From contig CAXHJY010001603.1 in assembly GCA_964016885.1 (NCBI GenBank), positions 1-64,000 on the forward strand: a DNA stretch of 64,000 bases, written 5' to 3'. Shown one piece after another: positions 5,672 to 54,990 of the stretch. Numbering within the stretch: the stretch's first letter is position 1; each line of letters begins with the position of its first letter. Below the pieces are notes generated by a model, which worked only from the letters and a program-made list of their open reading frames with translations, searched no databases and was not told the DNA's origin. Origin of the DNA: Eledone cirrhosa. Taxonomy: Eukaryota. The position numbers were made by a program, and so were the translations under genes.

Positions 5672-5715
<44 letters not shown>

Positions 5716-5728
5716 TTAATATAGATGA

Positions 5729-5777
5729 GATTCTACAGGACTAGAACTGTTTCGTTCTTTAGAAATCATCAGGAATC
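5729..5777 (-). ncRNA. Type I hammerhead ribozyme
   Basis: rc: gattc-CTGATGA-tttctaaagaac-GAAAC-agttctagtcct-GTA-gaatc; same family as 29312-29410. Confidence 0.85.
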
Positions 5778-6146
5778 AGGCTGTCCAAAATAAATGTTGT
5801 GGTATTTATATCTTTTCTGGTGGTAGGAGAGGGTGGGGAGTGGGATGGGTTGAGGTCATTGGTTGAAAGAAAAGGGAATTCATTAAAAGCTATAATTTCA
5901 TTAAGGCTATAATTCATTAAGGCTATAATTTATATTTAGAGTGACAAAGGCAGAAAGAATGCTATAAACAAGTTCAAATTGGGGTGCCACTCCTTATTTT
6001 TAAGTTTCTCTCAAGCTAACAATGCCTATATTTCAGGTGTCTATAAGATGGTTGGGGGTCGGTCATGGTTGATGGATTTAAAGAAAAAGGAAATTCTTTA
6101 AAGCTAATTCTTTAAAGCTCTACTTAGAGTGACAAAGGCCAAGAGA

Positions 6147-6638: not shown

Positions 6639-7039
6639 TATAAATGTTAAAACAAATATGTTCCTAATCACTAGAACATTTAACAGGATACATTATAGGT
6701 GAGAAGACTGATTATAAGTGTTAACACCAATATATTAAGGAGTAAGAGCATAAGAAAGTTGTACAGATATAAAAATAGTAATGAAATATAATGAATATAA
6801 TATAAATAATTGGAGGTATATGTTATATATAAAGATATGATTATTACTTATAACAAAAAATTATAATAAGAATATTATAGCAAAAATATTATATCAAAAA
6901 TATTAATTACAATAGAGTACATGCAATATATGTAAGAGAATGGTATAGTGAAAACATAAATGTAGGTATTAAAATTTATAAATATCAAAAGATATATTGA
7001 TTTTAGGCATTTATAATTTTTAATACCTACATTTATATC

Positions 7040-10010
7040 ACAGGGTGGAACAAGAGGGAGTTTGAGTCAGATCCAGGGAACAGGGCCCGTTGATAGGAAG
7101 AGGAAATGGCTGGACCAATTTAAGACCCTACTAGGAGAGCTGCCTTCCACAGACCAGAACACTGGGGAGATCAGGCAGCTGTTTGAGGAATTGGATATTG
7201 AGACAGAACCCTTTTCCAGAGAGCCAAGATGATGATCTAAGAGAAGATTGCGTGGCACCAGAGGTGAGTAAGAGGTGTGATTTTGATGCTATCATCCTGG
7301 AGTGCCCCGTGCTATAATATGGTGGGCTTTTAGAAAACTAGGAGTAGATGAATGGCTTGTGAAAGCTGTACAAGCCATGTACAGAGGAGCAGTCAGCAAA
7401 GTTAGGGTTAACAATGACTATAGCGAGGAATTTAGCATATAGGTTCTAAATTCCTCGCTATAGTCATTGTCAGAACTAGACAAACTTGGAAACAGAAGGC
7501 AACCTGACGAAGAAAGATCTGGAAGCTGAAAGACCCTTCAACCAGTAACAGAGACATTAAATGTAGAACACTGGGAGTTCCTAAAAAATAACTTACTAAA
7601 GGCGACGGACGAGATTTGTGGTTGGAACAAGACCACAGGGAGGAGGAGAGTGACTTCGTGGTGGAACAATAAGGTAGATGAGGCAATTAAGGCTAAGAGA
7701 CAGGCATGGAAAGAATGGAATAATGGGGGAAGCAGGGTACATTACATAGAGACCAGGAGGGAAGCTAGGCGACAACTATACTTAGCTAGAAGGGAAGTGG
7801 AGGATAGAAAATTCAAGCATGTTTTGCAGCATGAGGACCAGAAAAAGGAGGTGTTCAGGATTGCGAGGCAGTGTGTTAGAGAACATTGTGATGTCATTGG
7901 AGAGAAGTGTGTCCGGAACGATAAAAGTGAGCTTGCCATCACAAGTGCCGAGAAGAAAGCCGCGTCGAAGAGCCATTATGAAAGATTACTAAATGAGGAG
8001 AATGCATGGGAGAAAGAGACTCTGCCCCAAGTGGACACTATAGAGGGACCAGTAATACAAGTCAGCAGCAGCGTAGTAAGTAAGGCAATTAAAGATATGA
8101 AGACTGGGAAGGCAAGCAGTCCATCAGGTATAGCTGCCGAGATGCTGAAAGCATCTGGGTCGGTAGGCCACACCATAACCACACGTATTGTTAACCAGGT
8201 AATACAAGAGGGTGTCATACCAAAGGATTGGTGCAGCAGCATCATTGCCAACTGCTACAAAGCTAAAGGAGATACACTAGATAGAGGAAATTATAGAGGT
8301 ATAAAGCTGATGGACCAGGTCATGAAAGTAACAGAAAGAATTATAGTATACTTTATTAGGAGCCGGGTGAAACTAGATGAGATGCAATTTGGGTTTGTGC
8401 CAGGAAGGGGCACCACTGATGCCCTCTTCCTTGTGAGGCAGATAGAGGAAAAGTGCCTAGCTAAAAGTAAGCCGCTAAAAGTAAGCCGATGATCGACGAG
8501 GGCAAGGCCCATTGAGATGATTGCGTGACACCAGAGGTGAGTAAGAGGTGTGATTTTGATGCTATCATCCTGGAGTGCCCCGTGCTATAATCCGGTGGGC
8601 TCTTAGAAAACTAGGAGTAGATGAATGGCTTGTGAAAGCTGTACAAGCCATGTACAGGGGAGCAATCAGCAAAGTTAGGGTTAGCAATAACTATAGCGAA
8701 GAATTTAGCATACAGGTCAGTGTCCACTAGGGCTCTGTTCTTAGCCCTCTCCTGTTCATTATAGTTTTGCAGGCAATAACGGAGGAGTTTAAGACCGGAT
8801 GCCCATGGGAACTCCTGTATGCATATGATCTCACACTTATAGCTGAATCTATGTTAGAACTAGAGAAGAAATTCCAAACATTGAAGCTGGGACTAGAAAG
8901 AAAGGGTCTCAAAGTCAACCTGACAAAGACTAAGGTCCTCGTAAGTAGACGAGAAAACAGAACCCAGATCCTTCAGGGAAATGGCCTTGCTCAGTATGTA
9001 GGAACGGTGTAGGTAGGAATTCCATCCTCTGCGCCAAATGCAAACAATGGGTACACAAGATATGTAGTGGGATCTCAGGAAGCTTAACTAAGAATGTAGG
9101 CTTCACATGTAGCAGCTGTGCTGGGACAGCAAGTAGCTACCAAGCTCTGGGAGGGCTCTGTAGAAGCAGTAGACAGCTTTTGCTACCTAGGTGACCGAAT
9201 TAGCAGCGGAGGTGGGATGGAACGGGATGGAATAAGTTCAGGGGCTACTGCCACTGCTAGCTGCAAAAGGTTTTTCCCTCAAAATGAAAGGCAGACTGTA
9301 TGATGTGTGCACACCAACAGCAATGTTACATGGTAGTGCGACCTGGGGGCTGTGCGTAGAAGACTTGCAAAGATTAGAAAGAAACGAAGCTTGCATGCTC
9401 CGATGGATGTGTAATACGTGAACGGCAAAGCATAAACGAACTGAGAGAGAAGCTGAACATAAGAGGAATCAAATGCTGTGTGCAGTAGAGGAGCATGCGT
9501 TGGTACGGACATGTGATGCGTATGAAAGATGACAGCTGCATAAAGAAAGGCAGAGCACTAAAAGTTGATGAAACCCGTGGAGTGGATGGACTCAAGAAGA
9601 CCTGGAACGAGGTGATAATAGCCGACCTTGTCCAATTGCACCTCTCAACGGCGATGACACAGGACCGTGACCTCTGGCGTCACGCAGTAATACAGAGGCA
9701 ACAAGCCGAAGCGGAAGCATATAGGAAATATGCCCCCTTCCCCTCGTGGAGGTGTCACGACAAAAAAGCACCCAAACCACACTGTAAAGTGGACGTGCTG
9801 GGTGCTTTTTTCCGTGAAAAAAAAACACGCAGTACTGACTGTAAATGAGGTTGGTGTTAGGAAGGGCATCCAGCTGTAGAAATCAAGCCAAAATCAGTTC
9901 CCGTATGAGCAAGACAAGGTCAGCCGACTGGGCACAGCCCACAATAGGACAACCCGTCTAATCCATGCTAGCGTGGAAGAATCGATTTAAAACGGTGATG
10001 GTCATGATGA
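7040..10010 (+). mobile_element. RTE-clade LINE, 5'-truncated, rearranged and decayed
   Basis: WWNNKVDEAIKAKR..., NYRGIKLM, QFGFVPGRGTTDALF, PWELLYAYDL, RWYGHVMR; frameshifts and stops; (atg)-like tail near 10000. 7250-7440 duplicates 8525-8712. Confidence 0.9.
7650..9720 (+). pseudogene. RTE reverse transcriptase, fragmented
   Basis: ORFs 7650-8492, 8767-9012 and 9495-9848 are colinear pieces of an RTE ORF2. Confidence 0.85.
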
Positions 10011-10089: not shown

Positions 10090-10164
<75 letters not shown>

Positions 10165-10198
10165 AGTGTAATTTTCTACACAAAACGAAGGTTATAGC

Positions 10199-10738
10199 GA
10201 AAATTGAGGTTGGTAATGGCACATGGAATATATAAGAGACAGAATACTTTTTTGTGAAAAAACATAATTTTATAAGGTAAGGAAATAATAAAGGGTATAA
10301 AAAATGACCGGTTTCGATGGGTCTGCAAAAGCCATCTTTTCAAATGTTGATTAATATTAAGAAAAATTAATAATACGAAGAGTTAAAATTTGAGACTTGA
10401 AAATTCAAGTATAAAATTCATTGTGGGATTTCATAGCAGTTTTCATCTAGGTAGCAACAACAGGTTGACTGCTGTGTCCCTTTCTGGTAGTGAATGAGAA
10501 GTTATTTGGGGTGTGGGTTATTTTATAAAGGTCAGATTTAGCAATCACCAGCTGGCCAGCTGCTGGTCAGTGAGGGGGTGGAAGCAATATACATACACAT
10601 ATCTTCTTGTGGTGGGTAAGAGAGTGAAGCGTGATAGAAAGGGATTTAGTGCACTTACACCTATATATACACACATACCTTCATCCACACATACATACAT
10701 ATACATATACATATATATATATATATATATATACATAT

Positions 10739-10789
<51 letters not shown>

Positions 10790-10828
10790 TATACACATAC
10801 ATACACCCACACACAGAGAAATGGCCTT

Positions 10829-10832
<4 letters not shown>
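10199..10832 (-). mobile_element. Left arm of large inverted repeat (PLE-type 3' UTR with U3:A8 HHR at 10301-10348)
   Basis: Reverse complement of 17570-18645 apart from a few substitutions and microsatellite length; rc core TTGAAAA-gatgg..ccatc-GAAAC-cg-GTC. Confidence 0.9.
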
Positions 10833-10866
<34 letters not shown>

Positions 10867-10995
10867 CAGACACATATATTTTTTCCATAATATAAGAAGT
10901 TGGGGCAGTGAAATTAAAATACAAGTCATTCTGATCACATTGAGTTCTTCATGTAGATTGGGCCCCGCAACCGACAGTGGTGAATTCTGTGTGCG

Positions 10996-11047
<52 letters not shown>

Positions 11048-11205
11048 TAGATATATATGTGTGTGCACGTGCAGGGTTTAACATGGATGTGTTGGTCACA
11101 CAAAGGCATGGTCTGTCAATGAATAAACCTGATTCTACAGAATTGGTCTCAGGTCTTTAATAGTAGTGATTCCGTGCGTATGTGTGTTTATATTTTATGA
11201 CAATT

Positions 11206-13536
11206 CTATTGGGGTGATAACCCGTTTAGTTTTGGTTTAAATTTGTTAAGGAATAGATTTTCTTTGTTTATTCTTTGTTGCTGTGTGAACGAATCTGAGC
11301 ACTTGTAGAAGGGGAAGATTTTAAAGTTGGGTAGTGTCATTCCTGCGCAGTTCGCAATATGGCTGCTCAGGGGGATTTTTCTTGTGTTAGCGTCCCGGAT
11401 TTGTTGGCGGTGGATGGTCATTCTTTTGCGTAATGAGGTGCCCGTCTGTCCTATGTAGTTGTGTTGGCACCCACCGCAAGTTATTGCGTAAATCAAGTTC
11501 TCCGAGTTGCAGGTGAAATTGTTTTTTACTGTAAATGTTTGGCCATCTTTGAATGTAAATGTTTGTCCTTCAGTGAGGTAGAGGCACGTTCCACAGTTTG
11601 TTCTACCACATTTGGTAACTGTAGGGTTGAGGATTGGTTTGGGTATATTTGGTCCAGTGAGAATGCGTTTAAGTGATTTGGGTTGTCTTTTACTTTTAAG
11701 GATCTTGTGTCTTTCAAGAATAGACTTCATTTTTGCATCTTTAAGTAGGATGGGGAGGTTTTTGTGTAGGTGATCAAACATTTCGGTATTTCTGGGGTTG
11801 AAAGTGGATACATATGGCAGGGTGTTGAGTGTGGTTTTCTGTTTTGGATTGTTAAGTTGATGGGGATTTAGGTGTTTTGCCCTGTCTATTCCATTGTTGA
11901 TTATTTCAAGTGGAAAGGCTCTTAAGATAAGGGTGTCTTTTAGTTTTTTTAGTCTTTGCTCCCGTTTAGGTGGATCTGATACTATGGTACATATACGTTT
12001 GGCCAAATTGTAAGGAATGTTAAGTTTTGTATGTTTTGGGTGACTTGATGTGAAAAAGAGGTATTGCTTGGAATCTGTGGGTTTATAGAATATATCTGTA
12101 TCTAATTTCCCGTCTATTACAGAGATGAGAATGTCCAAGAAGGCTAATTCCTTAGGATTGGATTCCATTGTGAATTGTATGTTATTATCTATGTTGTCTA
12201 TCATGTTTTTAAACGTAGTAAGTGAGTTCATGTCTTCTTGCCATAGGATAAAGCAGTCGTCTAGATATCTTTTCCAATTGGCTTTGAGGTGTGTGTGGAA
12301 AGAGTCTCCAAATAAGAGAAGGGACTGACTGTATATTTGTTGTTCATGGAATCCCATGACTAGGTTGGCATATGTGGGTGCTACTTTCGTGCCCATTGCC
12401 GTACCTGATACTTGTCTGTATGTTGAACCATTGAATGTGAAGTAGTTATTTTGTAGGATAAAGCGGAGTCCGTCAGTGATAAAATCTGTGTTGATGCGTG
12501 TCGGTATTTCTGATGGGTGTGTGTTAAGCCAGTATTGGACTGCTGTTATTCCATAGTTGTGAGGTATGTTTGTGTAGAGGTTTATTACGTCAAAGGAGAC
12601 AAGAATTGTATTTGCACTTACTGTTTTAGGGAGGTGTTTCAGCATGTCAAGGTCATCTCGTATGTAGCTCTGTATATGTTGTAGAAAGGGTTTCAGTAGG
12701 ATGTCCAGAAAGTTGCTAAGTCTGTGGGTTTCACATGTAGGGCCTGCTATAATTGGCCTGAGTTTTAGATCTTCTGGTGGTGTTAGTTAAATGTAATTGT
12801 TGGTTGAGGTGTCACATGCATCGTTTATGGGTTTACATTTGTGAAGTTTCGGTAAGCCGTAAAAAGAGCTTGTATTGCATTTGAAGTGGCTTATATAGTT
12901 AAACTCTTTTGTGGTTAAGCTGTTGCGGTATTTATTCAGTAAGGTCAAAAGGTTCCCCATTGTTTTGGTGTGTTTGTAGTTTTCTGTTTTTTCATAGTAT
13001 GTGTTGTTTTCTAAAATGTTAAGTGCGAGGGTCCTATAGTAGTCCGTATTCATAATGACAACAGTACTGCCTTTATCGGCTTCTTTGATAGTTATCTCAG
13101 GGTTGTTTCTAAGTGTGAATAATTCTTCCCATTCGTGTGTAGATAGGTTTGATTTCGTGTGTTTATTTGTAATTTTTTCATAGGGAAAGTTGGTGATGTG
13201 TTCGCAGTACGTGTCCAGTGCTTTATTTCTTCCCTTTTGTGGGCAGAAATTGCTTTTATTTCTAACCAGTGGTTCGTCTTCAGTGTTGGTGTCGTTGTGG
13301 AAGAATTCCGTTAGTCGCAGCTTTCGGCAGTATTCCATGATGTCATCCTTCATTTCGGGGAAGTTTGGTTTACGTGGTGTAGGTGTAAATTTCAGGCCCT
13401 TACTTAAAATGTTGATTTGTGTGTTGGTTAGAGGTGTCTTTGAGAGGTTGATTATTTTTGGTTTCTCCTGAGGGGGGGCCATCGAGTATCCTGGTATTTC
13501 AGGCTTTTCCCTAAAAAAGGAATGTAGTTTTGTGTG
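11206..13536 (-). pseudogene. PLE RT/GIY-YIG polyprotein with one in-frame TAA (12787-12789)
   Basis: LSKGLKFTPTP, KEADKGSTVV, FYGLPKLHK, [stop]LTPPEDLKLRPIIAG, SFDVINLYTNIP, GTAMGT, RYLDD, CGRTNCGTC linker, LIYAITC..YIGQT. The two track ORFs are in the same frame. Confidence 0.92.
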
Positions 13537-13826
13537 TGATTTACGCAATAACTTGCGGTGGGTGCCAACACAACTACATAGGACAGACGGGCACCTCATT
13601 ACGCAAAAGAATGACCATCCACCGCCAACAAATCCGGGACGCTAACACAAGAAAAATCCCCCTGAGCAGCCATATTGCGAACTGCGCAGGAATGACACTA
13701 CCCAACTTTAAAATCTTCCCCTTCTACAAGTGCTCAGATTCGTTCACACAGCAACAAAGAATAAACAAAGAAAATCTATTCCTTAACAAATTTAAACCAA
13801 AACTAAACGGGTTATCACCCCAATAG
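13537..13826 (+). pseudogene. Inverted duplicate of GIY-YIG C-terminus
   Basis: IYAITCGGCQHNYIGQT...GLSPQ is identical to the end of ORF 11206-12645. Confidence 0.9.
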
Positions 13827-14160
13827 AATTGTCATAAAATATAAACACACATACGCACGGAATCACTACTATTAAAGACCAGAGACCAATTCTGTAGAAT
13901 CAGGTTTATTCATTGACAGACCATGCCTTTGTGTGACCAACACATCCATGTTAAACCCTGCACGTGCACACACATATATCTATATCTATATATATATATA
14001 TATATATATATGTGCGCACACAGAATTCACCACTGTCGGTTGCGGGGCCCAATCTACATGAAGAACTCAATGTGATCAGAATGACTTGTATTTTAATTTC
14101 ACTGCCCCAACTTCTTATATTATGGAAAAAATATATGTGTCTGTATGTATATATATATAT

Positions 14161-15450
14161 ATATATATGTGAATATAGACATAGAATATTCGAAAATATT
14201 CTGTATGTTTATAATAAACATTTTGAAGACCTAATCGCTATAGAATAGAATACGTCACGTATTACAATTAGATTCTCGATAAAAGCAAGGGAAGTAATCT
14301 ACGCGTTTCATTCTCGTTAGAAATCATCAGGACTACATATCCAGTGCTTTTATCGAGAATGACACAGCTAGAGACTTATAGAATACTTAGCTGTGTACAG
14401 GAACTGGTTTGAAAGAGCGGTTGCCGGTCCGGCAGAAATTAGAAATTGGAATAAATGCTCTGAAATAGCGATATATATGTGAATATAGACATAGAATATT
14501 CGAAAATATTCTGTATGTTTATAATAAACATTTTGAAGACCTAATCGCTATAGAATAGAATACGTCACGTATTACAATTAGATTCTCGATAAAAGCAAGG
14601 GAAGTAATCTACGCGTTTCATTCTCGTTAGAAATCATCAGGACTACATATCCAGTGCTTTTATCGAGAATGACACAGCTAGAGACTTATAGAATACTTAG
14701 CTGTGTACAGGAACTGGTTTGAAAGAGCGGTTGCCGGTCCGGCAGAAATTAGAAATTGGAATAAATGCTCTGAAATAGCGATATATATGTGAATATAGAC
14801 ATAGAATATTCGAAAATATTCTGTATGTTTATAATAAACATTTTGAAGACCTAATCGCTATAGAATAGAATACGTCACGTATTACAATTAGATTCTCGAT
14901 AAAAGCAAGGGAAGTAATCTACGCGTTTCATTCTCGTTAGAAATCATCAGGACTACATATCCAGTGCTTTTATCGAGAATGACACAGCTAGAGACTTATA
15001 GAATACTTAGCTGTGTACAGGAACTGGTTTGAAAGAGCGGTTGCCGGTCCGGCAGAAATTAGAAATTGGAATAAATGCTCTGAAATAGCGATATATATGT
15101 GAATATAGACATAGAATATTCGAAAATATTCTGTATGTTTATAATAAACATTTTGAAGACCTAATCGCTATAGAATAGAATACGTCACGTATTACAATTA
15201 GATTCTCGATAAAAGCAAGGGAAGTAATCTACGCGTTTCATTCTCGTTAGAAATCATCAGGACTACATATCCAGTGCTTTTATCGAGAATGACACAGCTA
15301 GAGACTTATAGAATACTTAGCTGTGTACAGGAACTGGTTTGAAAGAGCGGTTGCCGGTCCGGCAGAAATTAGAAATTGGAATAAATGCTCTGAAATAGCG
15401 ATATATATGTGAATATAGACATAGAATATTCGAAAATATTCTGTATGTTT
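14161..15450 (-). repeat. 310-bp tandem array, ~4.2 units, HHR on minus strand (retrozyme-like)
   Basis: Unit starts at 14161, 14471, 14781, 15091 and 15401; HHRs at 14294-14336 plus 310n (4 copies). Confidence 0.95.
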
Positions 15451-17553
15451 AAGTCTCTAGCTGTGTCATTCTCGATAAAAGCACTGGATATGTAGTCCTG
15501 ATGATTTCTAACGAGAATGAAACGCGTAGATTACTTCCCTTGCTTTTATCGAGAATCTAATTGTAATACGTGACGTATTCTATTCTATAGCGATTAGGTC
15601 TTCAAAATGTTTATTATAAACATACAGAATATTTTCGAATATTCTATGTCTATATTCACATATATATCGCTATTTCAGAGCATTTATTCCAATTTCTAAT
15701 TTCTGCCGGACCGGCAACCGCTCTTTCAAACCAGTTCCTGTACACAGCTAAGTATTCTATAAGTCTCTAGCTGTGTCATTCTCGATAAAAGCACTGGATA
15801 TGTAGTCCTGATGATTTCTAACGAGAATGAAACGCGTAGATTACTTCCCTTGCTTTTATCGAGAATCTAATTGTAATACGTGACGTATTCTATTCTATAG
15901 CGATTAGGTCTTCAAAATGTTTATTATAAACATACAGAATATTTTCGAATATTCTATGTCTATATTCACATATATATCGCTATTTCAGAGCATTTATTCC
16001 AATTTCTAATTTCTGCCGGACCGGCAACCGCTCTTTCAAACCAGTTCCTGTACACAGCTAAGTATTCTATAAGTCTCTAGCTGTGTCATTCTCGATAAAA
16101 GCACTGGATATGTAGTCCTGATGATTTCTAACGAGAATGAAACGCGTAGATTACTTCCCTTGCTTTTATCGAGAATCTAATTGTAATACGTGACGTATTC
16201 TATTCTATAGCGATTAGGTCTTCAAAATGTTTATTATAAACATACAGAATATTTTCGAATATTCTATGTCTATATTCACATATATATCGCTATTTCAGAG
16301 CATTTATTCCAATTTCTAATTTCTGCCGGACCGGCAACCGCTCTTTCAAACCAGTTCCTGTACACAGCTAAGTATTCTATAAGTCTCTAGCTGTGTCATT
16401 CTCGATAAAAGCACTGGATATGTAGTCCTGATGATTTCTAACGAGAATGAAACGCGTAGATTACTTCCCTTGCTTTTATCGAGAATCTAATTGTAATACG
16501 TGACGTATTCTATTCTATAGCGATTAGGTCTTCAAAATGTTTATTATAAACATACAGAATATTTTCGAATATTCTATGTCTATATTCACATATATATCGC
16601 TATTTCAGAGCATTTATTCCAATTTCTAATTTCTGCCGGACCGGCAACCGCTCTTTCAAACCAGTTCCTGTACACAGCTAAGTATTCTATAAGTCTCTAG
16701 CTGTGTCATTCTCGATAAAAGCACTGGATATGTAGTCCTGATGATTTCTAACGAGAATGAAACGCGTAGATTACTTCCCTTGCTTTTATCGAGAATCTAA
16801 TTGTAATACGTGACGTATTCTATTCTATAGCGATTAGGTCTTCAAAATGTTTATTATAAACATACAGAATATTTTCGAATATTCTATGTCTATATTCACA
16901 TATATATCGCTATTTCAGAGCATTTATTCCAATTTCTAATTTCTGCCGGACCGGCAACCGCTCTTTCAAACCAGTTCCTGTACACAGCTAAGTATTCTAT
17001 AAGTCTCTAGCTGTGTCATTCTCGATAAAAGCACTGGATATGTAGTCCTGATGATTTCTAACGAGAATGAAACGCGTAGATTACTTCCCTTGCTTTTATC
17101 GAGAATCTAATTGTAATACGTGACGTATTCTATTCTATAGCGATTAGGTCTTCAAAATGTTTATTATAAACATACAGAATATTTTCGAATATTCTATGTC
17201 TATATTCACATATATATCGCTATTTCAGAGCATTTATTCCAATTTCTAATTTCTGCCGGACCGGCAACCGCTCTTTCAAACCAGTTCCTGTACACAGCTA
17301 AGTATTCTATAAGTCTCTAGCTGTGTCATTCTCGATAAAAGCACTGGATATGTAGTCCTGATGATTTCTAACGAGAATGAAACGCGTAGATTACTTCCCT
17401 TGCTTTTATCGAGAATCTAATTGTAATACGTGACGTATTCTATTCTATAGCGATTAGGTCTTCAAAATGTTTATTATAAACATACAGAATATTTTCGAAT
17501 ATTCTATGTCTATATTCACATATATATCGCTATTTCAGAGCATTTATTCCAAT
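15451..17553 (+). repeat. 310-bp tandem array, ~6.8 units, HHR on plus strand (retrozyme-like)
   Basis: aagtctctag at 15451, 15761, 16071, 16381, 16691, 17001 and 17311; reverse complement of the left block's unit; 7 HHRs. Confidence 0.95.
15492..15534 (+). ncRNA. Type I hammerhead ribozyme of the 310-nt monomer (representative of 11 copies)
   Basis: gtagtc-CTGATGA-tttctaacgagaat-GAAAC-gc-GTA^gattac; palindromic helix III ACGCGT; stem I extended by 16-bp attctcgataaaagca/tgcttttatcgagaat. Confidence 0.92.
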
Positions 17554-17569
17554 ATATATATATATATAT

Positions 17570-17857
17570 TTGAAGGCCATTTCTCTGTGTGTGGGTGTAT
17601 GTATGTGTATATGTGTGTGTGTGTGTATGTGTGTGCATGTGGATGTATGTATTGTGTGTGCGTGTGTGTGTGTGTGTGTGTATGTATGTGGGTATCTGGA
17701 TGTATGCGTATGTGTATATATATATATATGTATGCGTGTGTGTGTGTGTGTGTATATATATGTGTGTGTATGTGTGTATATATATGTGTGTGTGTGTGTA
17801 TGTTTGTATGTGTGTATGTATATATATATGTGTGTGTGTGTGTATGTATGTGTGGGG

Positions 17858-17935
<78 letters not shown>

Positions 17936-17974
17936 ATGTATGTGTGTATCTGGATGTATGTGTATGTATATATA

Positions 17975-18029
<55 letters not shown>

Positions 18030-18094
18030 ATGTGTATATATGTGTGTGTGTGTATGTGTGTATGTATATGTATGTGTGTGTGTATGTATGTGTG

Positions 18095-18133
<39 letters not shown>

Positions 18134-18640
18134 GTATATGTATATGTATGTATGTGTGGATGAAGGTATGTGTGTATATATAGGTGTAAGTGCACTAAAT
18201 CCCTTTCTATCACGCTCCACTCTCCTACCCACCACAAGAAGATATGTGTATGTATATTGCTTCCACCCCCTCACTGACCAGCAGCTGGCCAGCTGGTGAT
18301 TGCTAAATCTGACCTTTATAAAATAACCCACACCCCAAATAACTTCTCATTCACTACCAGAAAGGGACACAGCAGTCAACCTGTTGTTGCTACCTAGATG
18401 AAAACTGCTATGAAATCCCACAATGAATTTTATACTTGAATTTTCAAGTCTCAAATTTTAACTCTTCGTATTATTAATTTTTCTTAATATTAATCAACAT
18501 TTGAAAAGATGGCTTTTGCAGACCCATCGAAACCGGTCATTTTTTATACCCTTTATTATTTCCTTACCTTATAAAATTATGTTTTTTCACAAAAAAGTAT
18601 TCTGTCTCTTATATATTCCATGTGCCATTACCAACCTCAA

Positions 18641-18645
<5 letters not shown>
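17570..18645 (+). mobile_element. Right arm of large inverted repeat (HHR at 18496-18543)
   Basis: Mirror of 10199-10832 with an expanded TG/TA microsatellite. Confidence 0.9.
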
Positions 18646-18726
<81 letters not shown>

Positions 18727-18732
<6 letters not shown>

Positions 18733-20045
18733 ATACTTTGGGAGGGTCATGTTGCCAATAAGAAACACACGCACCAGTTGCTTTCACTTCAATTTATTAT
18801 AATAAATTTATAAATTTAGGAATTTATAAATTTCCGGTGGGTTGGTTGGTTCCACAACCAGAGGGTTGTTTATATATTGTCAAAGTTCTTTCGTCACACA
18901 TTCTGTGACCTCTTCAGTGACTGGGGATTCTTTTCTTTGTTTTTGTACCTCTCCTTTGTTCTGTCCTACGCCATCTTGTTTCTGTGTGTGTGTTGTGCGC
19001 TCAGTCTGCGCATGCGCCACATCCGGGTGTCTGTGTGTGTTTATATTCGTTTATTTATTTGTTTATTTACATGTTACAGGTTGGTTGTTTGTTCTATGTG
19101 CGTGTGTGTTTTCATTTTGTCCTTAATTGTAAGTTGTGATGTTGTTGTTCCACTCATATTTTCTATTTAATTTTGGTTGTAATTCTTTTATGTTTATTGC
19201 CTCTGTGATTTGTCTAAACATTGCCTCTTTTCTCTGTGTAGATTCTATTTTTATTTCTATGTTCTCTAATTTACCCTTATGTTCTATTTTAGCATGTTGG
19301 TAGAGTACAGATGATTCTTTACTATCTTGAAGGTCTCGCCAGTGTTCATTTATCCGTTCCCCTACACTACGAGCTGTCTCACCTATGTACACTATATTTT
19401 TGTCTCTACATTGTCCTTCAATACATCTTATGCTATATACTACATTTCTAGTTTTACAGTTAATATGGGGGCTTAATTTACAGGTTATACATTTCTTATC
19501 TATACAGGGGGGTCTTTGAAAAGGGTATGTCTTGCTAATAAGTGTTTTTACGGAAGTACCTAGTCTTTCTACTATCTTAATATTGAGTTTATGTTTATCT
19601 AGGGCCCTTCTAAATTTGTAAGCTAATTCACCTCTAGGGGTTGTATCGATGAACATTACACTCTGGTATTTATTGCTATCATACCATGAGTTTATTCTAT
19701 TAGCCTTATTCCTAGTTCTTTCTATTCTATTCCAAAATTTACTCCTATACAAGGAGCAGGTCCCATTTGTGTCATTATTTACCATTTTTTCCCATTTGGT
19801 TCTGGCTCCTCTATACACTCTGATTTTATCTCTCTGATTTTAACCAGAGAACTGCATACGGTGGATGAAGTGTTGTATGTGTCTCTCTAGTTCTTCGGGG
19901 TTGCACATGCGGGACACGTTTCTCATCACCCGTACCAAATCCGCAATCAGTATGTTGATTTTGGTATGGTCCGAAACAGGTGAGTTTCGGTGGATCAGAT
20001 ATTTGGAAGTCATGGGTTTGGCATAATGGGAATGGAGGATTTGTT
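18727..20045 (-). mobile_element. 5'-truncated PLE (RT C-terminus, GIY-YIG, 3' UTR with intact HHR at 18879-18921)
   Basis: QILHSHYAKP..., CIDKKCITC, NVVYSIRC...YIGETARSVGERINEH; rc gtca-CTGAAGA-ggtcac..gtgac-GAAAG-aa-CTT-tgac. Confidence 0.92.
19123..19818 (-). CDS. PLE GIY-YIG endonuclease-containing ORF fragment
   Basis: VVYSIRC/YIGETAR GIY-YIG motifs and a terminal LN motif. Confidence 0.8.
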   Translation of the reverse strand: MYRGARTKWEKMVNNDTNGTCSLYRSKFWNRIERTRNKANRINSWYDSNKYQSVMFIDTTPRGELAYKFRRALDKHKLNIKIVERLGTSVKTLISKTYPFQRPPCIDKKCITCKLSPHINCKTRNVVYSIRCIEGQCRDKNIVYIGETARSVGERINEHWRDLQDSKESSVLYQHAKIEHKGKLENIEIKIESTQRKEAMFRQITEAINIKELQPKLNRKYEWNNNITTYN

Positions 20046-20232
20046 TCAACAAAGGAAGGGAAATAAGCTGACAGATCTGTTTCACACTGTTGGTGTTCAT
20101 CAGAGCTTAGCACTCGCCAACCATTGCTGAAATTTATAGAGGCTTTTTTTAAATTAAACATACAGTATATTGCCAAATATACTATACATACATTCATGTA
20201 TACATCGCTATTTTAGAGCACCAATCCTAATA
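20045..20232. mobile_element. Diverged relative of the 310-bp retrozyme, fold-back; HHR at 20065-20108 on minus
   Basis: rc aagct-CTGATGA-acaccaacagtgt-GAAAC-agatct-GTC-agctt with extended stem I (tttcagcaa/ttgttgaaa). + strand taaacatacagtatatt...atcgctattttagagca matches the monomer. Confidence 0.75.
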
Positions 20233-21052
20233 TATATAAATATATATATAATGAAGGAATGAAGAGTAACATGGAATAGCTATACAGTAGGGTTTATTCC
20301 CAAGTATTAACATATGTTTCATTTGCTGGATGTTTCTAAAAATTGCTATCTGCAGTGCTTTTGTGACATTCGATCTTAAATACTGCTTTTACCAGCAAAA
20401 TGATCAAAATACTGTTTTATACAGCGATACTCAGATGTATAAATAATATCATGAAAAACAACACGATGAAAAGCGGAATGAAATAAGAAATAATAAGATA
20501 AAATAAAATAAAAAATATAATAACAAAAAAGTAAAAAATAAGAATATAAATATAGGTATATAGATGTGAAGATGAGAAGTAATAGGGTGAGAAACTATAA
20601 TAAAATACAGTAAAGTAAATCCAAAGATATATCAAAATTTATGAATGCAGAGATTTATATATCTGATGGGTAATAAAGATGGAGGGGTAAGATAGTGGAG
20701 GTATGCAAATGGCAATAATAAATGATTGATGCCATATGTGAGGGTAAGAGAATTGAAGGGGTGTATGTATAAAGATAGAATTCCTATTCAGTGTGGGAGT
20801 GTTCTTAGCTTGCCAGCTTCTCTTGCATCTGATTGGTTAAGAGTTTGTTCCTTGCATTTTATTGATTAATGGTACATCCTCTACTTTGATTACCTTATAG
20901 GATATATAATTTATATATATATATCCTATAAGGTAATCCACTACTTGGAGTACCCTAACTGGACTACATCTAAGTGGACTACCTATAACAATAATTTGTT
21001 ATCCCGTACATATATATAGATTGAGAAAATGCGAAGTAGTTTCAGTTGCGTC

Positions 21053-21120: not shown

Positions 21121-21127
<7 letters not shown>

Positions 21128-21412
21128 GTTAAATAAAAGTCAAATGATTAAAATTTAGCTTCGTTTATTACTGCTATATATATATTTCAGTGACAGCCAT
21201 CTTTGGCTGTGACCTCTGCCTGAAGAGGTCACAGCCAAAGATGGCTATCACTGAAATATATATAGCAGTAATAAACGAAGCTAAATTTTAATCATTTGAC
21301 TTTTATTTAACTTTATTTTACACTACTCCGGAGTAACCAAACCAACCTGCGCACTTCGTCGAGTGCTCCAGCCTGCATACTGAGGTGTTGGTATACAACC
21401 TACATAAACTCA
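21121..21412. mobile_element. ~200-bp near-perfect palindrome of an HHR element; HHR at 21216-21268 (+)
   Basis: 21121-21217 mirrors 21224-21318; ctgc-CTGAAGA-ggtcacagccaaagatggctatcact-GAAA-tatat-ATA-gcag. Confidence 0.85.
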
Positions 21413-25218: not shown

Positions 25219-25715
25219 GATTTAGCTTCATGCATAGCTGTATACATATATGTATTGAAATTTCGTATTTCTAAAGAAATAAGATAAGATAAGTATTTAG
25301 AAAGCCGTAGCTATGCAAAACACTGAGGCTATTGCCCTCTGGTGGTGTCCAGCAGAAACAAGGGGGACAATCGTCGATGCATTTCGAATTTAACTCATCA
25401 AGACGATCCCTCTCACTCTTGCGACGGCATGATTTGAAAACAGGCGAGAATATATGGTTTTCTCGTCTGTCTAAATGAGGTGATTAACTTGTGCAGCTTC
25501 ATATACAAACGAGATCAATCACCTCATTTACACAGACGAGAAAGCCAGCAGTCGCAAGAGGGGAGGGATTGTCCTGATGAGGACCAGTTAGTTCGAAATG
25601 CATCGACGATTGTCCCCCTTGCTTCTGCTCGATACCACCAGAGGGCGTTAGCTACTGCTTTCTAAATGCTTATCTATAAACATACCGTATTTCTTTAGAA
25701 ATACGAAATTTCTAT
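25219..25715. mobile_element. Fold-back of a short HHR element; HHRs at 25370-25407 (-, decayed) and 25568-25610 (+)
   Basis: attgtc-CTGATGA-ggaccagttagttc-GAAA-tgc-ATC-gacgat; the arms are diverged reverse complements; third copy at 52110-52320. Confidence 0.85.
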
Positions 25716-26349: not shown

Positions 26350-27036
26350 AACAAAGGTCAAACACAAATATAAGATCAAAACTTTGTCACAAGAATATTA
26401 GGATGATACATAATATGCGAGGTTAGATAAGCATAAGCATCAAACTGGTGAGGAAAAAACATAAGAAAAAACATAAGAATAGGAGCAGATAAATGCAATA
26501 AATTAAAAAAAAAACATGCTGTTACAGATAAATTAAGTACAGTGAAAATCATATATCAGAAAGTTAATAAGAGAAAACATGCAATTAAAATATAAATTTA
26601 AAAATATATCTCAAAAAAATATATTAAAATATGTTTAGATGCACGTGTAGCATAGCCAGGGATTACAGAAAGGTACAAAATTATAAGTTCGGCTATATAA
26701 TTCAGTCATAATAACAATTATTATTCAAAACGTCCAAAGGAGCTAAATAAATGTGAAGCAATAAATACAACCATCAAAGTAAAAGATCCAATATATGTTA
26801 TCAGTTAGGCACTCAAGATACATCATCTAAAGCACCACAGTTCAATAGAGGAGGCAAAGTCATATGCCATCAACAGTACAAATCATCCATCTTAGAATGG
26901 AATTTAAAAATTAAACCTTAAAATAAGCGGTTAAAACAAAATAAAGGGGAGGTAATTTATGTAAGAGATTCTATAAGAGTGTTACTATATATTTAGTGAG
27001 GAAAAATAGAAATTTCGTATTTCTAAAGAAACACGG

Positions 27037-27190
27037 TTTTATCGACCCCGTAAGGATGAAAGGCAAAGTTAACCTCGGCGGGATTTGAACTCAGATCATA
27101 ATATATATAATATAACATGGCATATAAGATATACAATTGTACAGAACGAATCAGCAATTCTGCCCAGCTCAACTGTGAGTCAATTAACTC
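27037..27190 (-). mobile_element. tRNA-derived SINE fragment
   Basis: rc gagttcaaatcccgccgaggttaactttgcctttcatccttacggggtcgataaa (B-box plus conserved central domain). Confidence 0.8.
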
Positions 27191-28432: not shown

Positions 28433-28570
28433 TCGAGTCATAGTCCTTGTATGGATCTGGCTGATTCTACTTCTGCGGGTTCTTTCAAAATTTACTTCAG
28501 ACGTAACACCCTTGTCTGAAGAACCCGCAGAAGTAGAATCAGCCAGATCCATACAAGGACCATGACTCGA
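28433..28570. repeat. ~60-bp-arm inverted repeat
   Basis: tcgagtcatagtccttgtatggatctggctgattctacttctgcgggttctt / aagaacccgcagaagtagaatcagccagatccatacaaggaccatgactcga. Confidence 0.9.
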
Positions 28571-29297: not shown

Positions 29298-29419
29298 ATT
29301 TTATAGAAGGAGCTTCTACAGGACTAGTACTGTTTCATTCAGATGAAATCTTCAGGAAGCTTTCATCTGAAGATTTCATCTGAATGAAACAGTACTAGTC
29401 CTGTAGAAGCTCCTTCTAT

Positions 29420-29424
<5 letters not shown>
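29298..29424. ncRNA. Head-to-head double hammerhead mini-element (29312-29360 minus; 29367-29410 plus)
   Basis: CTGAAGA-tttcatctgaat-GAAAC-agtactagtcct-GTA-gaagc on both strands. Confidence 0.85.
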
Positions 29425-29494: not shown

Positions 29495-32400
29495 TCCTTC
29501 GGTTGAGCACTCTACTGATTTATATTCATCATGCAGAAACAACATCTGAATATTTCTACAAAGAACATACCCGTACCAAGCAGGAAAACACCTAAAACTC
29601 CTGATACAGAAAACAGACGCGTTCATTAAAAGGTTGCGTTGGCGTGCCTTTTATTTCGATAATCCGCGAAAATCAGACAACAAACAGGATAAATTTGGAT
29701 TTAAAACCTATAATAACCCTCCAGCATTGCTACCCTTCGAAAATGATGTCTTGGAACTCATTCGGAGTATCAAATTTCGGAATAGGAGCAATTCCTTCCA
29801 GAAAGACCTGAAGAATAGAATTCGTTCTATTAAGGATTCTAACGCCGTGCACGTCCATTCCGACAAAACTGGCAACCTATATCAAGTGGAGCGCAGTACT
29901 TACCATCAACTACTACATAATGCTGTAACTAAGGATTACCGTAAAACTAATCGGTGTGTCATCAATGAAATCAACGATGCTGGGTTTAAAATCACATCTG
30001 ATCTCAACATCATGGACCGGACCGAACCTCTGGACCCTATCTCTCCCCACTTTACCCTGAAGGATCACAAATCCAATTTTCCGAACAACCCCTCTATTCG
30101 GCTTATTAACCCTACGAAGTCCGATTTAGGTAGACTTAGTAAAACGATTCTTGATAGAATTATACCTGAAATTAGAAGTTTGGCCCCTCTCGCACTGTGG
30201 AACAATTCCTTCGCGGTGATTGATTGGTTCAACGGCATATGTAACAAGGAACATTGCCGTTTTATCCAATTCGACATCAACAATTACTACTCCTCCATCA
30301 CTTTACCACTTCTCCTTAGAGCTATCAATTTCGCTAAAACACTCACAGTGGTTAAGGATTTCGAAGTTCATGTCATCCTTAATGCCCGAAAGTCGGTGAT
30401 TAATTTCGACGACTCTATTTGGATTAAAAAATCCAATAGCACCCCATTTGACGTGAGTATGGGCGCCAGTGACTCTGCAGAGGTTTCTGATCTTATTGGC
30501 CTTTTCCTTCTTTTCTCTATCAAGGACGAATTCCCCAACGCGGGCGGTGGTTTGTACCGTGACGATGGTCTTTTGACCATGACTAAGTGCGGACCTCGTG
30601 CTTGCGACAGGTTCAGAAAGAACTCACAGCCTTCTTTAAAGGCTTCAACCTCTCTATACAGGCTGAGGCCAATCTCTCGGTCGTTAATTACCTCGACGTT
30701 ACCCTCAATTTATTGAATGGGTTGTATTACCCGTATAGAAAGCCGAATGATACGCTTAATTACATAAGTAAGCATTCCAACCATCCTGCCAGCATAGCCA
30801 AGAACCTGGTAAAAAACGTTTCGTTGAGGCTTTCCCGTCTTTCCACCAACGAGCGCATTTTCAACGACCATTCCACTTATTACAATGAAGCTCTTGCTCG
30901 AAGTGGATTTGTCGATAAGGTAGCTTATACAGAGTACGAAAATAGACCTAGAAGAAATAGATCCCGTCGCATTTGTTGGTTTAACCCACCATATAATATG
31001 GAGGTGGCCACACCATTAGCTAAGATCTTTCTTTCCCTTATTACGAAGCATTTTCCCCCTACACATAAATATAGTAACATTTTTAATAGAAATACTATTA
31101 AAATGTTTTACTCTATGACTCCTAACCTTGCACATAACATCACAGCTTCAAACTTAGCTAAACTACCTAGCCGTAGGAACACGTGCAACCCTGTAGTTAG
31201 TACTAACTGTAATTGTAGGAATCGGGCTGATTGCCCTCTATCCGGGAAATGCCTCTCTAGTAACATTGTCTACAAATGTAAGGTTGTAACACCCACGTCC
31301 CGTAGGGCCTACATAGGGTTAACCGCCAATAGTTTCAAGCAGCGTCTTTACATGCATACCCATTCTTTTCGTTACCCTCTAAGAAGGAATATGACGTCAC
31401 TTTCAGCTTATATCTGGAGTCTAAAAGACAACCACACCCAATATAAGTTACACTGGGAGATCCTAGCTAGGGCTAGATCGTATTACGGAAATAAAAGACC
31501 ATGTGACCTCTGCGCCGCTGAGGCCCTGGAAATACTCTACGCCACAGACCACATCTTAAACAAAAAATCTGAGGCAATTTCGGCTTGTATATGTTTTGTT
31601 TATTCCTTTACTTATTTGCATAGGTAAGTATATATTACCCGTATGTTTTGTGAAGGTATGTATACCTTCTCGTACGTATATTTGACTGTTATGGCGTATA
31701 ATTTTTACATATTCTGGTATTTAGGGTTTGGCTATGTGTATACGGGAGTTTTGCGTCTGCGTGAGTATGCAGGTTCGTACGTATGGTGGGTGTGTGTATA
31801 TGTGTACTTCTTGTTTTAGTTGACTTACGTCTCCGAACATTCGTGGATTTATTTGTAGGTATGTGTGTGCGCTTGTTATATACGTATTTATTTACTTATA
31901 TACGTTTATATAAATATTTATTTATTTGTACACAAGCATACACACACACACATATTTATATGTGCGTGGTTTTGTATACCCATGGTAAGGTTTTGCGGAT
32001 GCTTGTGTATGTACGTATCTGTTTGCGTGTATGTATTTATTTGTTTCTATTACTTCTGTATTGTATTTATTTACTTTGTTCTTAACTCTGTAGCGGAGAT
32101 TTCATTTGGTCTCCTAGTTAGAATTTTAGTCTACGACTTCTGCTATACCATTTACGTGGTTTTGTCTTTGCGTGCTATTGTTCTCCACGCTCCACATATT
32201 ACTTATTATCTTCGTTTTTTCGTTCATTGCCAGAGAACGTCTCTATGCACCACCTAAGAGAACATTAGTCTACGACCTCTTTTATACCATAAACGTGGTT
32301 CTGTCTTTGCGCGTAATTGTTTTTCACCGCTCCTATTAATGACGTATTATATTCGTTTTTTCCCGTTCTTTGCCAGCGAACGTTACCACGAACCAAAGTA

Positions 32401-32557: not shown

Positions 32558-33161
32558 TGAAAGACGTAAAATAAGAAAATTATAAAAATTAACTTACTTA
32601 CTAAAATTTCACTCCAACTAATTAGTTTCTGAACGGGAATAAACATAGTTTCCGAAGAAACGTACGAAGAAGCCTTTCGTCATCAGGGAAGTCTATTCTC
32701 AGCTAAGTTTCCAGGCAATGCGTGGATACAGGGAACTTATACAAAAATAATTCAGTGGATGGAAAAAAGCAAAGCGTGGACTAAGTTCCAAGCCATTGAA
32801 AAAATCACTGCCTACTGCGTTCGGCTGCTGTCTTCTTAACAAACCACTCCTCACTGATTAACCTCGATGTCACGTAATTGATTCTTTTGAATTTGCCACC
32901 GACGCTGTAGGCAGTGATTTTTTCAATGGCTTGGAACTTAGTCCACGCTTTGCTTTTTTCCATCCACTGAATTATTTTTGTATAAGTTCCCTGTATCCAC
33001 GCATTGCCTGGAAACTTAGCTGAGAATAGACTTCCCTGATGACGAAAGGCTTCTCCGTACGTTTCTTCGGAAACTATGTTTATTCCCTTTCAGAAACTAA
33101 TTAGTTGGAGAGAAATTTTTGTAAGTTAATTTTTATAATTTTCTTATTTTACGTCTTTCAT
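32558..33161. mobile_element. Fold-back HHR element; HHRs at 32612-32691 (-) and 33031-33110 (+) with enlarged loop II
   Basis: ~265-bp inverted arms around a ~75-bp spacer; ttcc-CTGATGA-cgaaagg[~35 nt]cctttca-GAAAC-taatta-GTT-ggag. Confidence 0.8.
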
Positions 33162-33410: not shown

Positions 33411-39179
<5,769 letters not shown>

Positions 39180-39185
<6 letters not shown>

Positions 39186-39757
39186 TTGGAGCTCTGAAAT
39201 AGCAATATATATATGGATGTATATATAATGTATTTTGCAATGCACTTTATGCTTAATTAAAAGCATTTTGAAGACCGTAAGCTATTGTTTTAAAGTAGTG
39301 ACAAATTCACTTACTTTGATCTCAGCAAACAGGGGAGATAAGCCTACAAGGCCTTGTTTCGCTTTTGTTGAAGCTTATCAAGGCTAACTACTCCCTCCTG
39401 TCTACCGATATATATACAGCTACCAATATATATACATCCATATATATATTGCTATTTCAGAGCTCCAATTCTAATTTTTAATTTCTGCCTGACCAACAAC
39501 CGCTCTGTATAATCAGTTCCTGATTATTTACTAGAATTCTATAAGAATATAACATCAGTGATCTCGGTAGACAGGAGGGAGTAGTTAGCCTTGATAAGCT
39601 TCAACAAAAGCGAAACAAGGCCTTGTCGGCTTATCTCCCCTGTTTGCTGAGATCAAAGTAAGTGAATTTGTCACTACTTTAAAACAATAGCTTACGGTCT
39701 TCAAAATGCTTTTAATTAAGCATAAAGTGTATTGCAAAATACATTATATATACATCC

Positions 39758-41280: not shown

Positions 41281-43775
<2,495 letters not shown>

Positions 43776-43949
43776 GATTTATTATTACTCCAAGTGTTTA
43801 CAACATAGGAATTACGGCATACCCGCAGCATCACTATGAAAACGCCTTGTTGAGTCAAACCAAGCCAAGCGTTAATATCATCCACTACCTGGAATACCAT
43901 AACTGGACTTTACCTAAGAGGACTGCATTTAACTATTATTTGTTACTCC

Positions 43950-52320: not shown

Positions 52321-52325
52321 CTATT

Positions 52326-52436
<111 letters not shown>

Positions 52437-54440: not shown

Positions 54441-54514
54441 AGTCTTTTTTGCCATTGAGATTATGGTCTACCTCTTATGAGCCAAAACTAATTCATCGCC
54501 ATTATATATATATA

Positions 54515-54952: not shown

Positions 54953-54990
<38 letters not shown>

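What the first reader, a model, noticed from the sequence alone, without database searches (positions are those of the whole stretch)
18727..20232. PLE-retrozyme chimera: candidate direct footprint of the helper RT
Seen: on minus, the extended stem I of a retrozyme-family HHR (20045-20145) runs with no spacer or TA tract into PLE RT coding sequence (...gttgaaacaa|atcctccattcc = QILHSH). That PLE continues to its own 3' end at (TA)n 18727. An inverted retrozyme arm (20150-20232) closes the insertion at another TA tract. Inference: one TPRT event switched template from PLE RNA to retrozyme RNA, which would identify this PLE family (also 1621, 52561, 55004) as the mobilising partner.
Basis: partly seen in the sequence, partly recalled or inferred. 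Interest (0 to 1): 0.8.

Follow-up and report, generated by a model that had tools for sequence, protein, structure and literature searches.

The report
Penelope element fused to a retrozyme
In this octopus-type genome a truncated Penelope-like jumping gene is joined directly to the hammerhead-ribozyme part of a small non-coding 'retrozyme' element; the join is likely two neighbouring insertions fused with loss of about 100-140 bases, though a single copying event that jumped between the two RNAs remains possible and would show which enzyme spreads retrozymes.

Summary
The sequence observation holds. On the minus strand a type I hammerhead (core 20103, cleavage site 20070) of the 310/318-mer retrozyme family runs, with about 3 shared bases (20044-20046) and no TA tract, into the last 307 codons and 3' end of a Penelope-like element (PLE). 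An inverted retrozyme arm (20147-20231) ends at a second TA tract. The mechanism is not settled. Retrozymes here insert as head-to-head pairs, so any 5'-truncated PLE arriving from outside meets an arm in the same orientation: orientation is not diagnostic. The same layout, with its TA tract kept, occurs at 52561-54953. I favour a PLE landing beside an older retrozyme pair and joining it by microhomology with loss of about 105-140 bp (0.5) over a template jump (0.35). Even a jump would only nominate this PLE family: the window holds at least three PLE lineages and SINE-containing insertions at TA tracts. The firmer result is that the window's retrozyme insertions carry the PLE signature (inverted arms, TA targets, two ends 34-36 nt apart, like the PLE 'tail'). 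This supports PLE-class mobilisation without needing the chimera. No whole genome or junction-spanning record was available.

The parts
18644..18727 (.). (TC)n(TA)n tract at the PLE 3' end; left anchor
18728..19122 (-). PLE 3' UTR / pseudo-LTR region, ending at the TA tract
   Evidence: 93% to both arms of the 1619-2140 copy; deepest part of the stretch
18879..18921 (-). The PLE's own minimal hammerhead (core 18917, position 17 at 18883; helix I 4 bp, II 6 bp, III 2 bp)
   Evidence: architecture as described for PLE min-HHRs in PMC4209133
19123..20046 (-). 5'-truncated PLE ORF: RT C-terminal part, CX4CxxC linker, GIY-YIG-type endonuclease region; one in-frame stop at 19840-19842
   Evidence: 61.7% to an Octopus vulgaris RT-domain protein P0007, 54% to O. 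bimaculoides P0001
20044..20046 (-). Fusion junction; about 3 nt shared by both parts, 23-26 nt 3' of the hammerhead cleavage site, at the base of extended stem I
   Evidence: (record 24)
20044..20143 (-). Retrozyme hammerhead hairpin (canonical type I, palindromic helix III, C17 at 20070)
   Evidence: 59 X1 contigs cover 20062
20143..20147 (.). Inversion point between the two retrozyme segments
   Evidence: (loose end at 20147)
20147..20231 (+). Inverted retrozyme arm ending at the long ('tail') end, site B
20232..20250 (.). Short interrupted TA tract; right anchor, followed by low-depth flank
14161..17553 (.). Reference: head-to-head 310-nt retrozyme arrays (4.2 and 6.8 copies, 100% identical units); left end at site A, right end at site B, 34 nt further
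39181..39757 (.). Reference: head-to-head 318-nt retrozyme pair with an altered core; left end at site B, right end at site A, 36 nt apart

Best explanation
A 5'-truncated Penelope-like element is joined without a spacer to the hammerhead arm of a head-to-head retrozyme pair, likely because the PLE inserted into the TA tract at the left end of an already present pair and its truncated end was likely joined by microhomology about 105-140 bp inside that arm, removing the tract and the arm's outer part. Steps: (1) inferred: a retrozyme RNA is copied by PLE-type machinery at a TA tract from its two start sites, giving left arm, inversion and right arm, as at 14161-17553 and 39181-39757; (2) shown as a pattern, inferred for this locus: TA tracts next to earlier insertions are hit again; (3) inferred: the PLE cDNA, primed at the left TA tract and stopping after about 1.3 kb, anneals through about 3 shared bases at the base of the hammerhead hairpin, or an equivalent deletion follows later. 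Either way the junction is not a footprint of one RT reading both RNAs.
For: Head-to-head pairs point both 3' ends outward, so a PLE 5' end arriving from the left always meets a same-strand arm. The undeleted version of this layout is in the window: sister PLE 52561-54500, a 14-nt TA run, then the inverted pair 54516-54953. Of 10 hand-picked adjacencies between TA-anchored elements, 8 keep a TA run and 2 do not. The locus closes a pile-up spanning about 10160-20250. All 5 outer ends of this retrozyme family in the window lie at site A or B; the fused end at +23 to +26 is at neither, so it is not a primary start. The retrozyme part has the geometry of a normal pair that lacks only its outer left piece, which would have ended at site A opposite the site-B right end. 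Precedent: a Penelope 5' junction formed by microhomology annealing without TSD, and many Penelope copies broken by microhomology deletions (PMC3846280, passages).
Against: It needs two events plus loss of at least about 105 nt, and I have no rate for such losses in PLEs. A second TA-less, same-strand fusion sits at 27037 (HHR-family 3' end to a SINE fragment, 110 nt in all, TA on both sides), which suggests that joining of different RNAs may be common. The two parts look similar in age: the PLE part differs by 31 of 1006 nt from 7 listed contigs that I picked for low difference counts, and among the 40 of 343 variant rows shown there are 4 near-fixed differences in about 190 retrozyme nt against 13 in about 1310 PLE nt (my count; both lower bounds). 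One short end plus one tail end also fits a single insertion. PLE template jumps have been proposed before (PMC3846280).
Confidence: 0.5

Rival explanations
1. One PLE-driven insertion used two RNAs. One DNA end was primed on the PLE RNA and, after about 1.3 kb, the RT jumped to a circular or uncleaved retrozyme RNA at the base of stem I and read across the cleavage site for about 100 nt. The other DNA end was primed at retrozyme site B, and the two cDNAs were joined.
For: No TA or spacer at the junction, about 3 nt overlap, landing at the single-stranded foot of a 9-bp (family allele 12-bp) stem. One short end and one tail end, as in the 310 and 318 pairs. Parts of comparable divergence. A purified PLE protein cleaves and extends both strands, starts at two sites that bound the tail and is predicted to be a dimer (PMC11167929). 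Second composite at 26992-27101. L1 forms same-orientation chimeras by switching and opposite-orientation ones by twin priming (PMC13174262, passages).
Against: It needs a heterologous jump and a second start on the other RNA in one event. Orientation and microhomology are equally expected from fusion. The landing site is not a canonical start. Jumping by a PLE RT was not shown in the parts of PMC11167929 that I read.
Confidence: 0.35
2. The fusion is a copy of a pre-existing chimeric master: a retrozyme promoter read through into a truncated PLE, and the composite RNA was retrotransposed with twin priming.
For: The inverted arm ends about 60-80 nt upstream, on the monomer, of where the hammerhead segment begins, which fits twin priming on one RNA. 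Trans mobilisation of foreign sequence by Penelope is reported (PMC3846280).
Against: No sign of an abundant fused family: X1 depth in the junction bin is 74,364 against about 93,000 expected from the two families simply ending there (summed contig depth, a rough measure). On a 310-nt circle any point is 'upstream' of any other. It only moves the origin of the junction back one step.
Confidence: 0.08
3. The junction is an assembly error between two repeat copies.
For: No listed record bridges 20044, and none of the 59 X1 contigs at 20062 carries the window's letter.
Against: The window has no N and resolves 100%-identical 310-nt arrays, which suggests long reads (inference). The window's letter at 20119 is seen in X1 at depth 7.5, similar to the unique right flank (7.2). 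The tool filters records, so a hole proves nothing.
Confidence: 0.04
4. A self-cleaved retrozyme RNA was ligated to a PLE RNA fragment before reverse transcription, as proposed for U6/L1 chimeras.
For: Retrozyme monomers carry 2',3'-cyclic phosphate ends (PMC7229834 Discussion); ligation is a proposed route for U6/L1 (PMC13174262).
Against: Ligation predicts a junction at C17 (20070); the junction is 23-26 nt further 3' and the cleavage site is read through intact.
Confidence: 0.03

Closest known systems
Non-LTR retrozymes of animals (Cervera and de la Pena 2020, PMC7229834; Li, Clavereau and Pollet 2026, 10.64898/2026.07.22.740005)
   Same: About 300-nt AT-rich non-coding monomers in tandem, each with a canonical type I hammerhead; PLEs with minimal hammerheads in the same genome; PLEs proposed as helper.
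   Different: Here they insert as head-to-head pairs at TA tracts with two ends 34-36 nt apart. In PMC7229834 'inverted' and 'target site' occur 0 times in the main text; the preprint's main text argues from co-occurrence and pLTR similarity only. Unlike 24 of 57 Xenopus families there, this family shows no similarity to the neighbouring PLE's 3' UTR. Expression, cleavage and circles were not tested.
EN+ Penelope-like elements with a CX2-5CxxC linker (Neptune/Nematis type; PMC8557442) and their inverted, tailed insertions (PMC3846280, PMC11167929)
   Same: C-terminal GIY-YIG-type domain with CX4CxxC linker and C-C-H-H-like residues, minimal HHR in the 3' end, 5' truncation, TA targeting, inverted copies.
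   Different: The inverted partner at this locus is a retrozyme, not the element's own pLTR. Full-length relatives carry DKS and some RWK/RWR in place of DKG, so the clade is not fixed.
Chimeric LINE-1 insertions, such as U6/L1 and tRNA/L1 (PMC13174262, passages)
   Same: A small abundant RNA 5' of a 5'-truncated autonomous element, in the same orientation, plus an opposite-orientation piece.
   Different: There are no TSDs here to prove a single event (TA tracts on both sides), the element is a PLE, and the junction is not at the small RNA's 3' end.

Membership tests
Type I hammerhead ribozyme | CUGANGA and GAAA core, U-H at 16.1/17, three helices, open helix I | tested here: met
   helix I 6 bp, II 4 bp, III palindromic, C17 at 20070; shuffle mean 0.01. 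Rfam models gave no hit at gathering score.
Type I hammerhead ribozyme | Self-cleavage activity | not testable with these tools
   Needs in vitro transcription; this copy has private changes that weaken stem I.
Non-LTR retrozyme | Tandem 150-400-nt monomers, each with a type I HHR, non-coding | tested here: met
   Met by the family (310-mer arrays); the finding itself is a fragment homologous to them, not an array. The 310-mer has a T-T at the base of helix II and missed my strict descriptor.
Non-LTR retrozyme | Expressed as linear and circular RNA | not testable with these tools
   No RNA run was available to lay.
EN+ Penelope-like element | RT followed by C-terminal GIY-YIG endonuclease in one ORF | tested here: met
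   By homology and motifs; relatives P0006 and P0056 carry PF01541. Direct Pfam scan of the two pieces of this copy found no RT or GIY-YIG hit; the sister's RT piece hit RVT_1 below its cut-off.
EN+ Penelope-like element | Minimal HHR in the terminal repeat region; 5' truncation; inverted copies | tested here: met
Neptune/Nematis-type PLE | CX2-5CxxC linker and CCHH motif | tested here: met
   CIDKKCITC linker and C-C-H-H-like residues; definitions from PMC8557442
Neptune versus Nematis clade | Placement in an RT phylogeny with labelled references | not tested
   No labelled reference sequences were in hand.
Hydra clade PLE | CxCX5C linker, no CCHH, DKT | tested here: not met
   Not in this family; 29550-31627 has RWR, DKT and CxCX5C, and 42409-43797 has CxCX5C.
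Single-event chimeric retroinsertion | One pair of TSDs or an empty orthologous site around both parts | tested here: inconclusive
   TA tracts hide any TSD; no genome; no bridging record shown.
Single-event chimeric retroinsertion | Junction at the small RNA's processed 3' end (ligation type) | tested here: not met
   Junction 23-26 nt 3' of C17.

The most novel reading that the evidence does not exclude
One dimeric PLE complex started on its own RNA at one DNA end and on a retrozyme's canonical start site at the other, and jumped between the two RNAs. The locus would be a physical footprint tying this CX4CxxC-linker PLE family to retrozyme mobilisation. Together with the inverted, tailed retrozyme arrays in the window, it would give sequence-level proof of the PLE-retrozyme helper relation and name the enzyme and RNA to test in vitro.
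Probability: 0.35. Interest if true: 0.65.

Novelty: new member of a known kind. Interest (0 to 1): 0.4.

Why it matters
Which enzyme copies animal retrozymes is open: PMC7229834 calls PLEs a strong candidate, and the 2026 preprint argues from co-occurrence and terminal-repeat similarity. The 34-36-nt two-end pattern and head-to-head arms on retrozyme insertions match the PLE tail, which PMC11167929 ties to two RT start sites. That is mechanism-level support for PLE-class mobilisation and maps the candidate start sites on the retrozyme. If the chimera were one event it would also nominate a specific PLE family. As a fusion it is an ordinary product of crowded TA-tract insertion, and a warning that same-orientation chimeras are not diagnostic where elements insert as inverted pairs.

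Tried and rejected
Whole genome: none held, so consensus building, junction counts and the empty-site check could not be run. Rfam: 0 hits in 64 kb at gathering score. ARAGORN: 0 tRNAs. Collection scans for related DNA found nothing: retrozyme-arm pattern in metagenome contigs, 0; PLE protein in metagenome contigs, 134 pattern matches and 0 confirmed; PLE 3'-end pattern in viral contigs, 0 and genome contigs, 0. Sequencing runs: no RNA holder listed. I laid 4 of 23 listed runs on 18735-20480 only, so the left flank was not tested; output was cut (40 of 343 variant rows, 15 of 282 joints, 24 of 1823 loose ends, 24 of about 23,770 pieces), and the retrozyme's natural continuation past 20044 was not among the rows shown. 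Covariation count on alignment A1: my structure string was out of register, so the result is uninformative and was replaced by the descriptor scan. Retrozyme derived from a neighbouring PLE 3' UTR: 4 retrozyme queries against 5 PLE 3' regions gave nothing clear (best 4 of 200 shuffles, among 40 comparisons in all). A structural reason for the inversion point: the finding and the 310 array invert within about 10 nt of the same two monomer positions, but these do not pair in the predicted circle, the 318 pair differs, and the short shared motif is about 16 nt out of register; left as unexplained. RNA ligation at the cleavage site: rejected on position. Earlier scan notes: nothing by place, by sequence or by the long word list. 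Literature searches listed no paper on cephalopod retrozymes or PLE-retrozyme chimeras; the library is open-access only and I saw most hits as listings.

Full report
Host and data. The best named protein hits are Octopus bimaculoides and Octopus vulgaris, so the window is from an octopus-type cephalopod (inference). No whole genome is held. The evidence is the window itself, one laying of four public runs, protein relatives and papers.

The observation. Reading minus from 20143: a hammerhead with core at 20103, helix I 6 bp, helix II 4 bp, palindromic helix III and C17 at 20070. A strict descriptor finds 5 such motifs in 1-56000 and a mean of 0.01 in 100 block shuffles. Extended stem I pairs down to 20044. 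The frame QILHSH... starts at once and runs through a CX4CxxC linker and GIY-YIG-type region to 19123, with one stop at 19840-19842. A 3' UTR with its own minimal hammerhead (core 18917) ends at the TA tract at 18727. On plus, 20147-20231 is a retrozyme arm that ends at a short TA tract. Both retrozyme pieces align to the 310- and 318-nt monomers better than all of 1000 shuffles. The arm motif has 16 matches in the window against 0.58 expected; 14 lie in these retrozymes and 2 are unrelated 2-mismatch hits. Direct Pfam scans of this copy found neither RT nor GIY-YIG, so the PLE call rests on relatives and motifs. Rfam was blank.

The junction. A depth-90 contig from run X5 matches the PLE over 19742-20046 with 10 differences, and another X5 relative leaves the window at 20043. 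Stem I needs 20044. About 3 nt are therefore shared; by loose alignment to the 318-mer the overlap could be up to 7 nt (my reading). The junction is 23-26 nt 3' of the cleavage site, which excludes ligation of a self-cleaved monomer. At 20062, 20119 and 20123 nearly all contigs and reads differ from the window; by my pairing, the family letters at 20062 and 20123 strengthen stem I, so this is a decayed copy of a structured family. Both families are very deep, and PLE depth falls from the 3' end toward the junction as expected from 5' truncation. Summed contig depth is not a copy number. The junction bin (74,364) shows no excess over about 93,000 expected if both families just end there. No listed piece bridges the junction, but only 24 of about 23,770 were shown.

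How retrozymes insert here. The 310-mer arrays (14161-17553) and the 318-mer pair (39181-39757) are head-to-head, with both 3' ends at TA tracts. In each, one arm stops at site A and the other at site B, 34 and 36 nt further (site A is followed by 8-10 nt of AT, so the tail is 26-36 nt). The finding's right arm stops at site B: 5 of 5 outer ends are at A or B. PLE insertions are described with inverted copies and a 30-40-bp tail at one end (PMC8557442, passages and the Hydra section; PMC3846280, passages). For a lizard PLE the tail is the stretch between two RT start sites, and the protein cuts and extends both strands (PMC11167929, parts 1-2 of 4). The retrozymes thus bear the PLE signature. 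This rests on two pairs plus one end, and is the best-supported inference in this report. In PMC7229834 (passages and Discussion) PLEs are a 'strong candidate'. The 2026 preprint (parts 1-3 of 5, abstract to discussion; supplements closed) uses co-occurrence and pLTR similarity. I did not see the tail or inversion argument in either, and searches listed no cephalopod retrozyme paper.

One event or two. Because pairs point both 3' ends outward, a PLE that primes in the left TA tract and presents its truncated 5' end to the pair is always on the same strand as the arm it meets. Orientation therefore carries no weight. The window has the undeleted analogue: sister PLE 52561-54500, 14 nt of TA, inverted pair 54516-54953. 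Of 10 adjacencies I picked, 8 keep a TA run and 2 (20044, 27037) do not. The finding closes a pile-up (about 10160-20250) whose other members look young: arm-to-arm substitution 0.8% for the 10161/18643 pair and 0.5% for the Neptune-like pair, and identical units in the 310-mer arrays. The retrozyme portion looks like a normal pair that lacks 105-140 nt of its left arm. Microhomology 5' joints and microhomology deletions are reported for Penelope elements. For a single event: there is no residue of TA; the ends are one short and one tailed; the parts are of similar divergence (31 of 1006 nt for the PLE against 7 selected contigs; at least 4 in about 190 nt against at least 13 in about 1310 nt near-fixed differences, my count from the 40 rows shown); and a second compact composite exists at 26992-27101. 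Landing at the hairpin foot fits either an RNA template or resected single-stranded DNA. I put fusion at 0.5, template jump with twin priming at 0.35, a chimeric master at 0.08, assembly error at 0.04 and ligation at 0.03. These are judgements, not computed odds.

Does it name the helper? Not by itself. The window holds the finding's lineage (18728, 1619; sister 52561 and 55004 at 72-73% in the 3' UTR), a Neptune-like element with DKG (10863-14147), whose right-hand TA tract hosts the 310-mer arrays, and Hydra-like elements (29550-31627, 42409-43797). The retrozyme pieces show no clear similarity to any of 5 PLE 3' regions. A SINE that elsewhere has 17- and 19-nt TSDs (40518, 50495) appears as a TA-anchored inverted pair (54516-54953) and fused to another HHR family's 3' end (27037; E 1e-11 and 9e-27 for the two parts), so TA-anchored composites are not specific to retrozymes. 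That the SINE is tRNA-derived is my recollection of octopus SINEs; ARAGORN found no tRNA. L1 chimeras (PMC13174262, passages) are the closest precedent, and there TSDs and orthologous sites decide the matter; TA tracts remove that test here.

Verdict. A real composite of two known element kinds, in a group where my searches found no retrozyme report. The single-event reading is live but second. The wider signature in the window supports PLE-class mobilisation more firmly than the chimera does. Interest 0.4; new member of a known kind.

Noticed in passing
window 14161-17553 and 39181-39757: Retrozyme insertions are head-to-head at TA tracts with one end at site A and the other at site B, 34-36 nt apart, matching the PLE 'tail' signature.
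   Followed up: yes
window 26992-27101 (-): Second TA-less same-strand composite: 65-nt internal SINE fragment joined to the last 45 nt or so of the 25.5k/52k hammerhead family, TA on both sides.
   Followed up: partly
window 54516-54953: A SINE that has 17-19-nt TSDs at 40518 and 50495 occurs here as an inverted pair between TA tracts, in PLE style; both arms carry the same 16-nt 3' extension.
   Followed up: partly
window 10161-10831 and 17570-18643: Inverted pair (0.8% arm divergence) with a 40-nt extension on the left end only and a degenerate hammerhead-like core near 18505-18540; it encloses the Neptune-like PLE and the 310-mer arrays.
   Followed up: partly
window 29550-31627 (+), 42409-43797 (-), 3763-4272 (-): PLE fragments; the first has the RWR, DKT and CxCX5C motifs of the Hydra clade, the second CxCX5C; the third resembles them by eye only.
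   Followed up: partly
window 5712-5800, 21121-21318, 25254-25715, 29300-29422, 32559-33159, 52111-52326: Further hammerhead-core-bearing inserts of at least three other families, most as inverted pairs at TA tracts; the 52k copy has TA on the right only and lies 67 nt from an RTE-like fragment on the left.
   Followed up: partly
window 15450 and 20143-20147: The inversion points of the 310-mer array and of the finding fall within about 10 nt of the same two monomer positions; the 318 pair differs; unexplained.
   Followed up: partly
window 18735-18803, run X4 (table 5c): A depth-1153 contig returns from 18803 to 18735 with 17 letters between, suggesting a short tandem derivative of the PLE 3' end.
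   Followed up: no
window 6956-7036, 7411-7470, 28433-28570: Small inverted duplications without TA flanks, two of them next to or within RTE-like and helicase-like fragments; inverted structure alone is not PLE-specific in this genome.
   Followed up: no
window 33591-39146 and 47457-49350: LTR-retrotransposon-like copies: 683-nt direct repeats at 98.8% around protease, RT and integrase-like frames, and a related fragment.
   Followed up: no
window 56018-64000: 20/40-bp satellite that abruptly cuts the inverted arm of the 55004 PLE.
   Followed up: no
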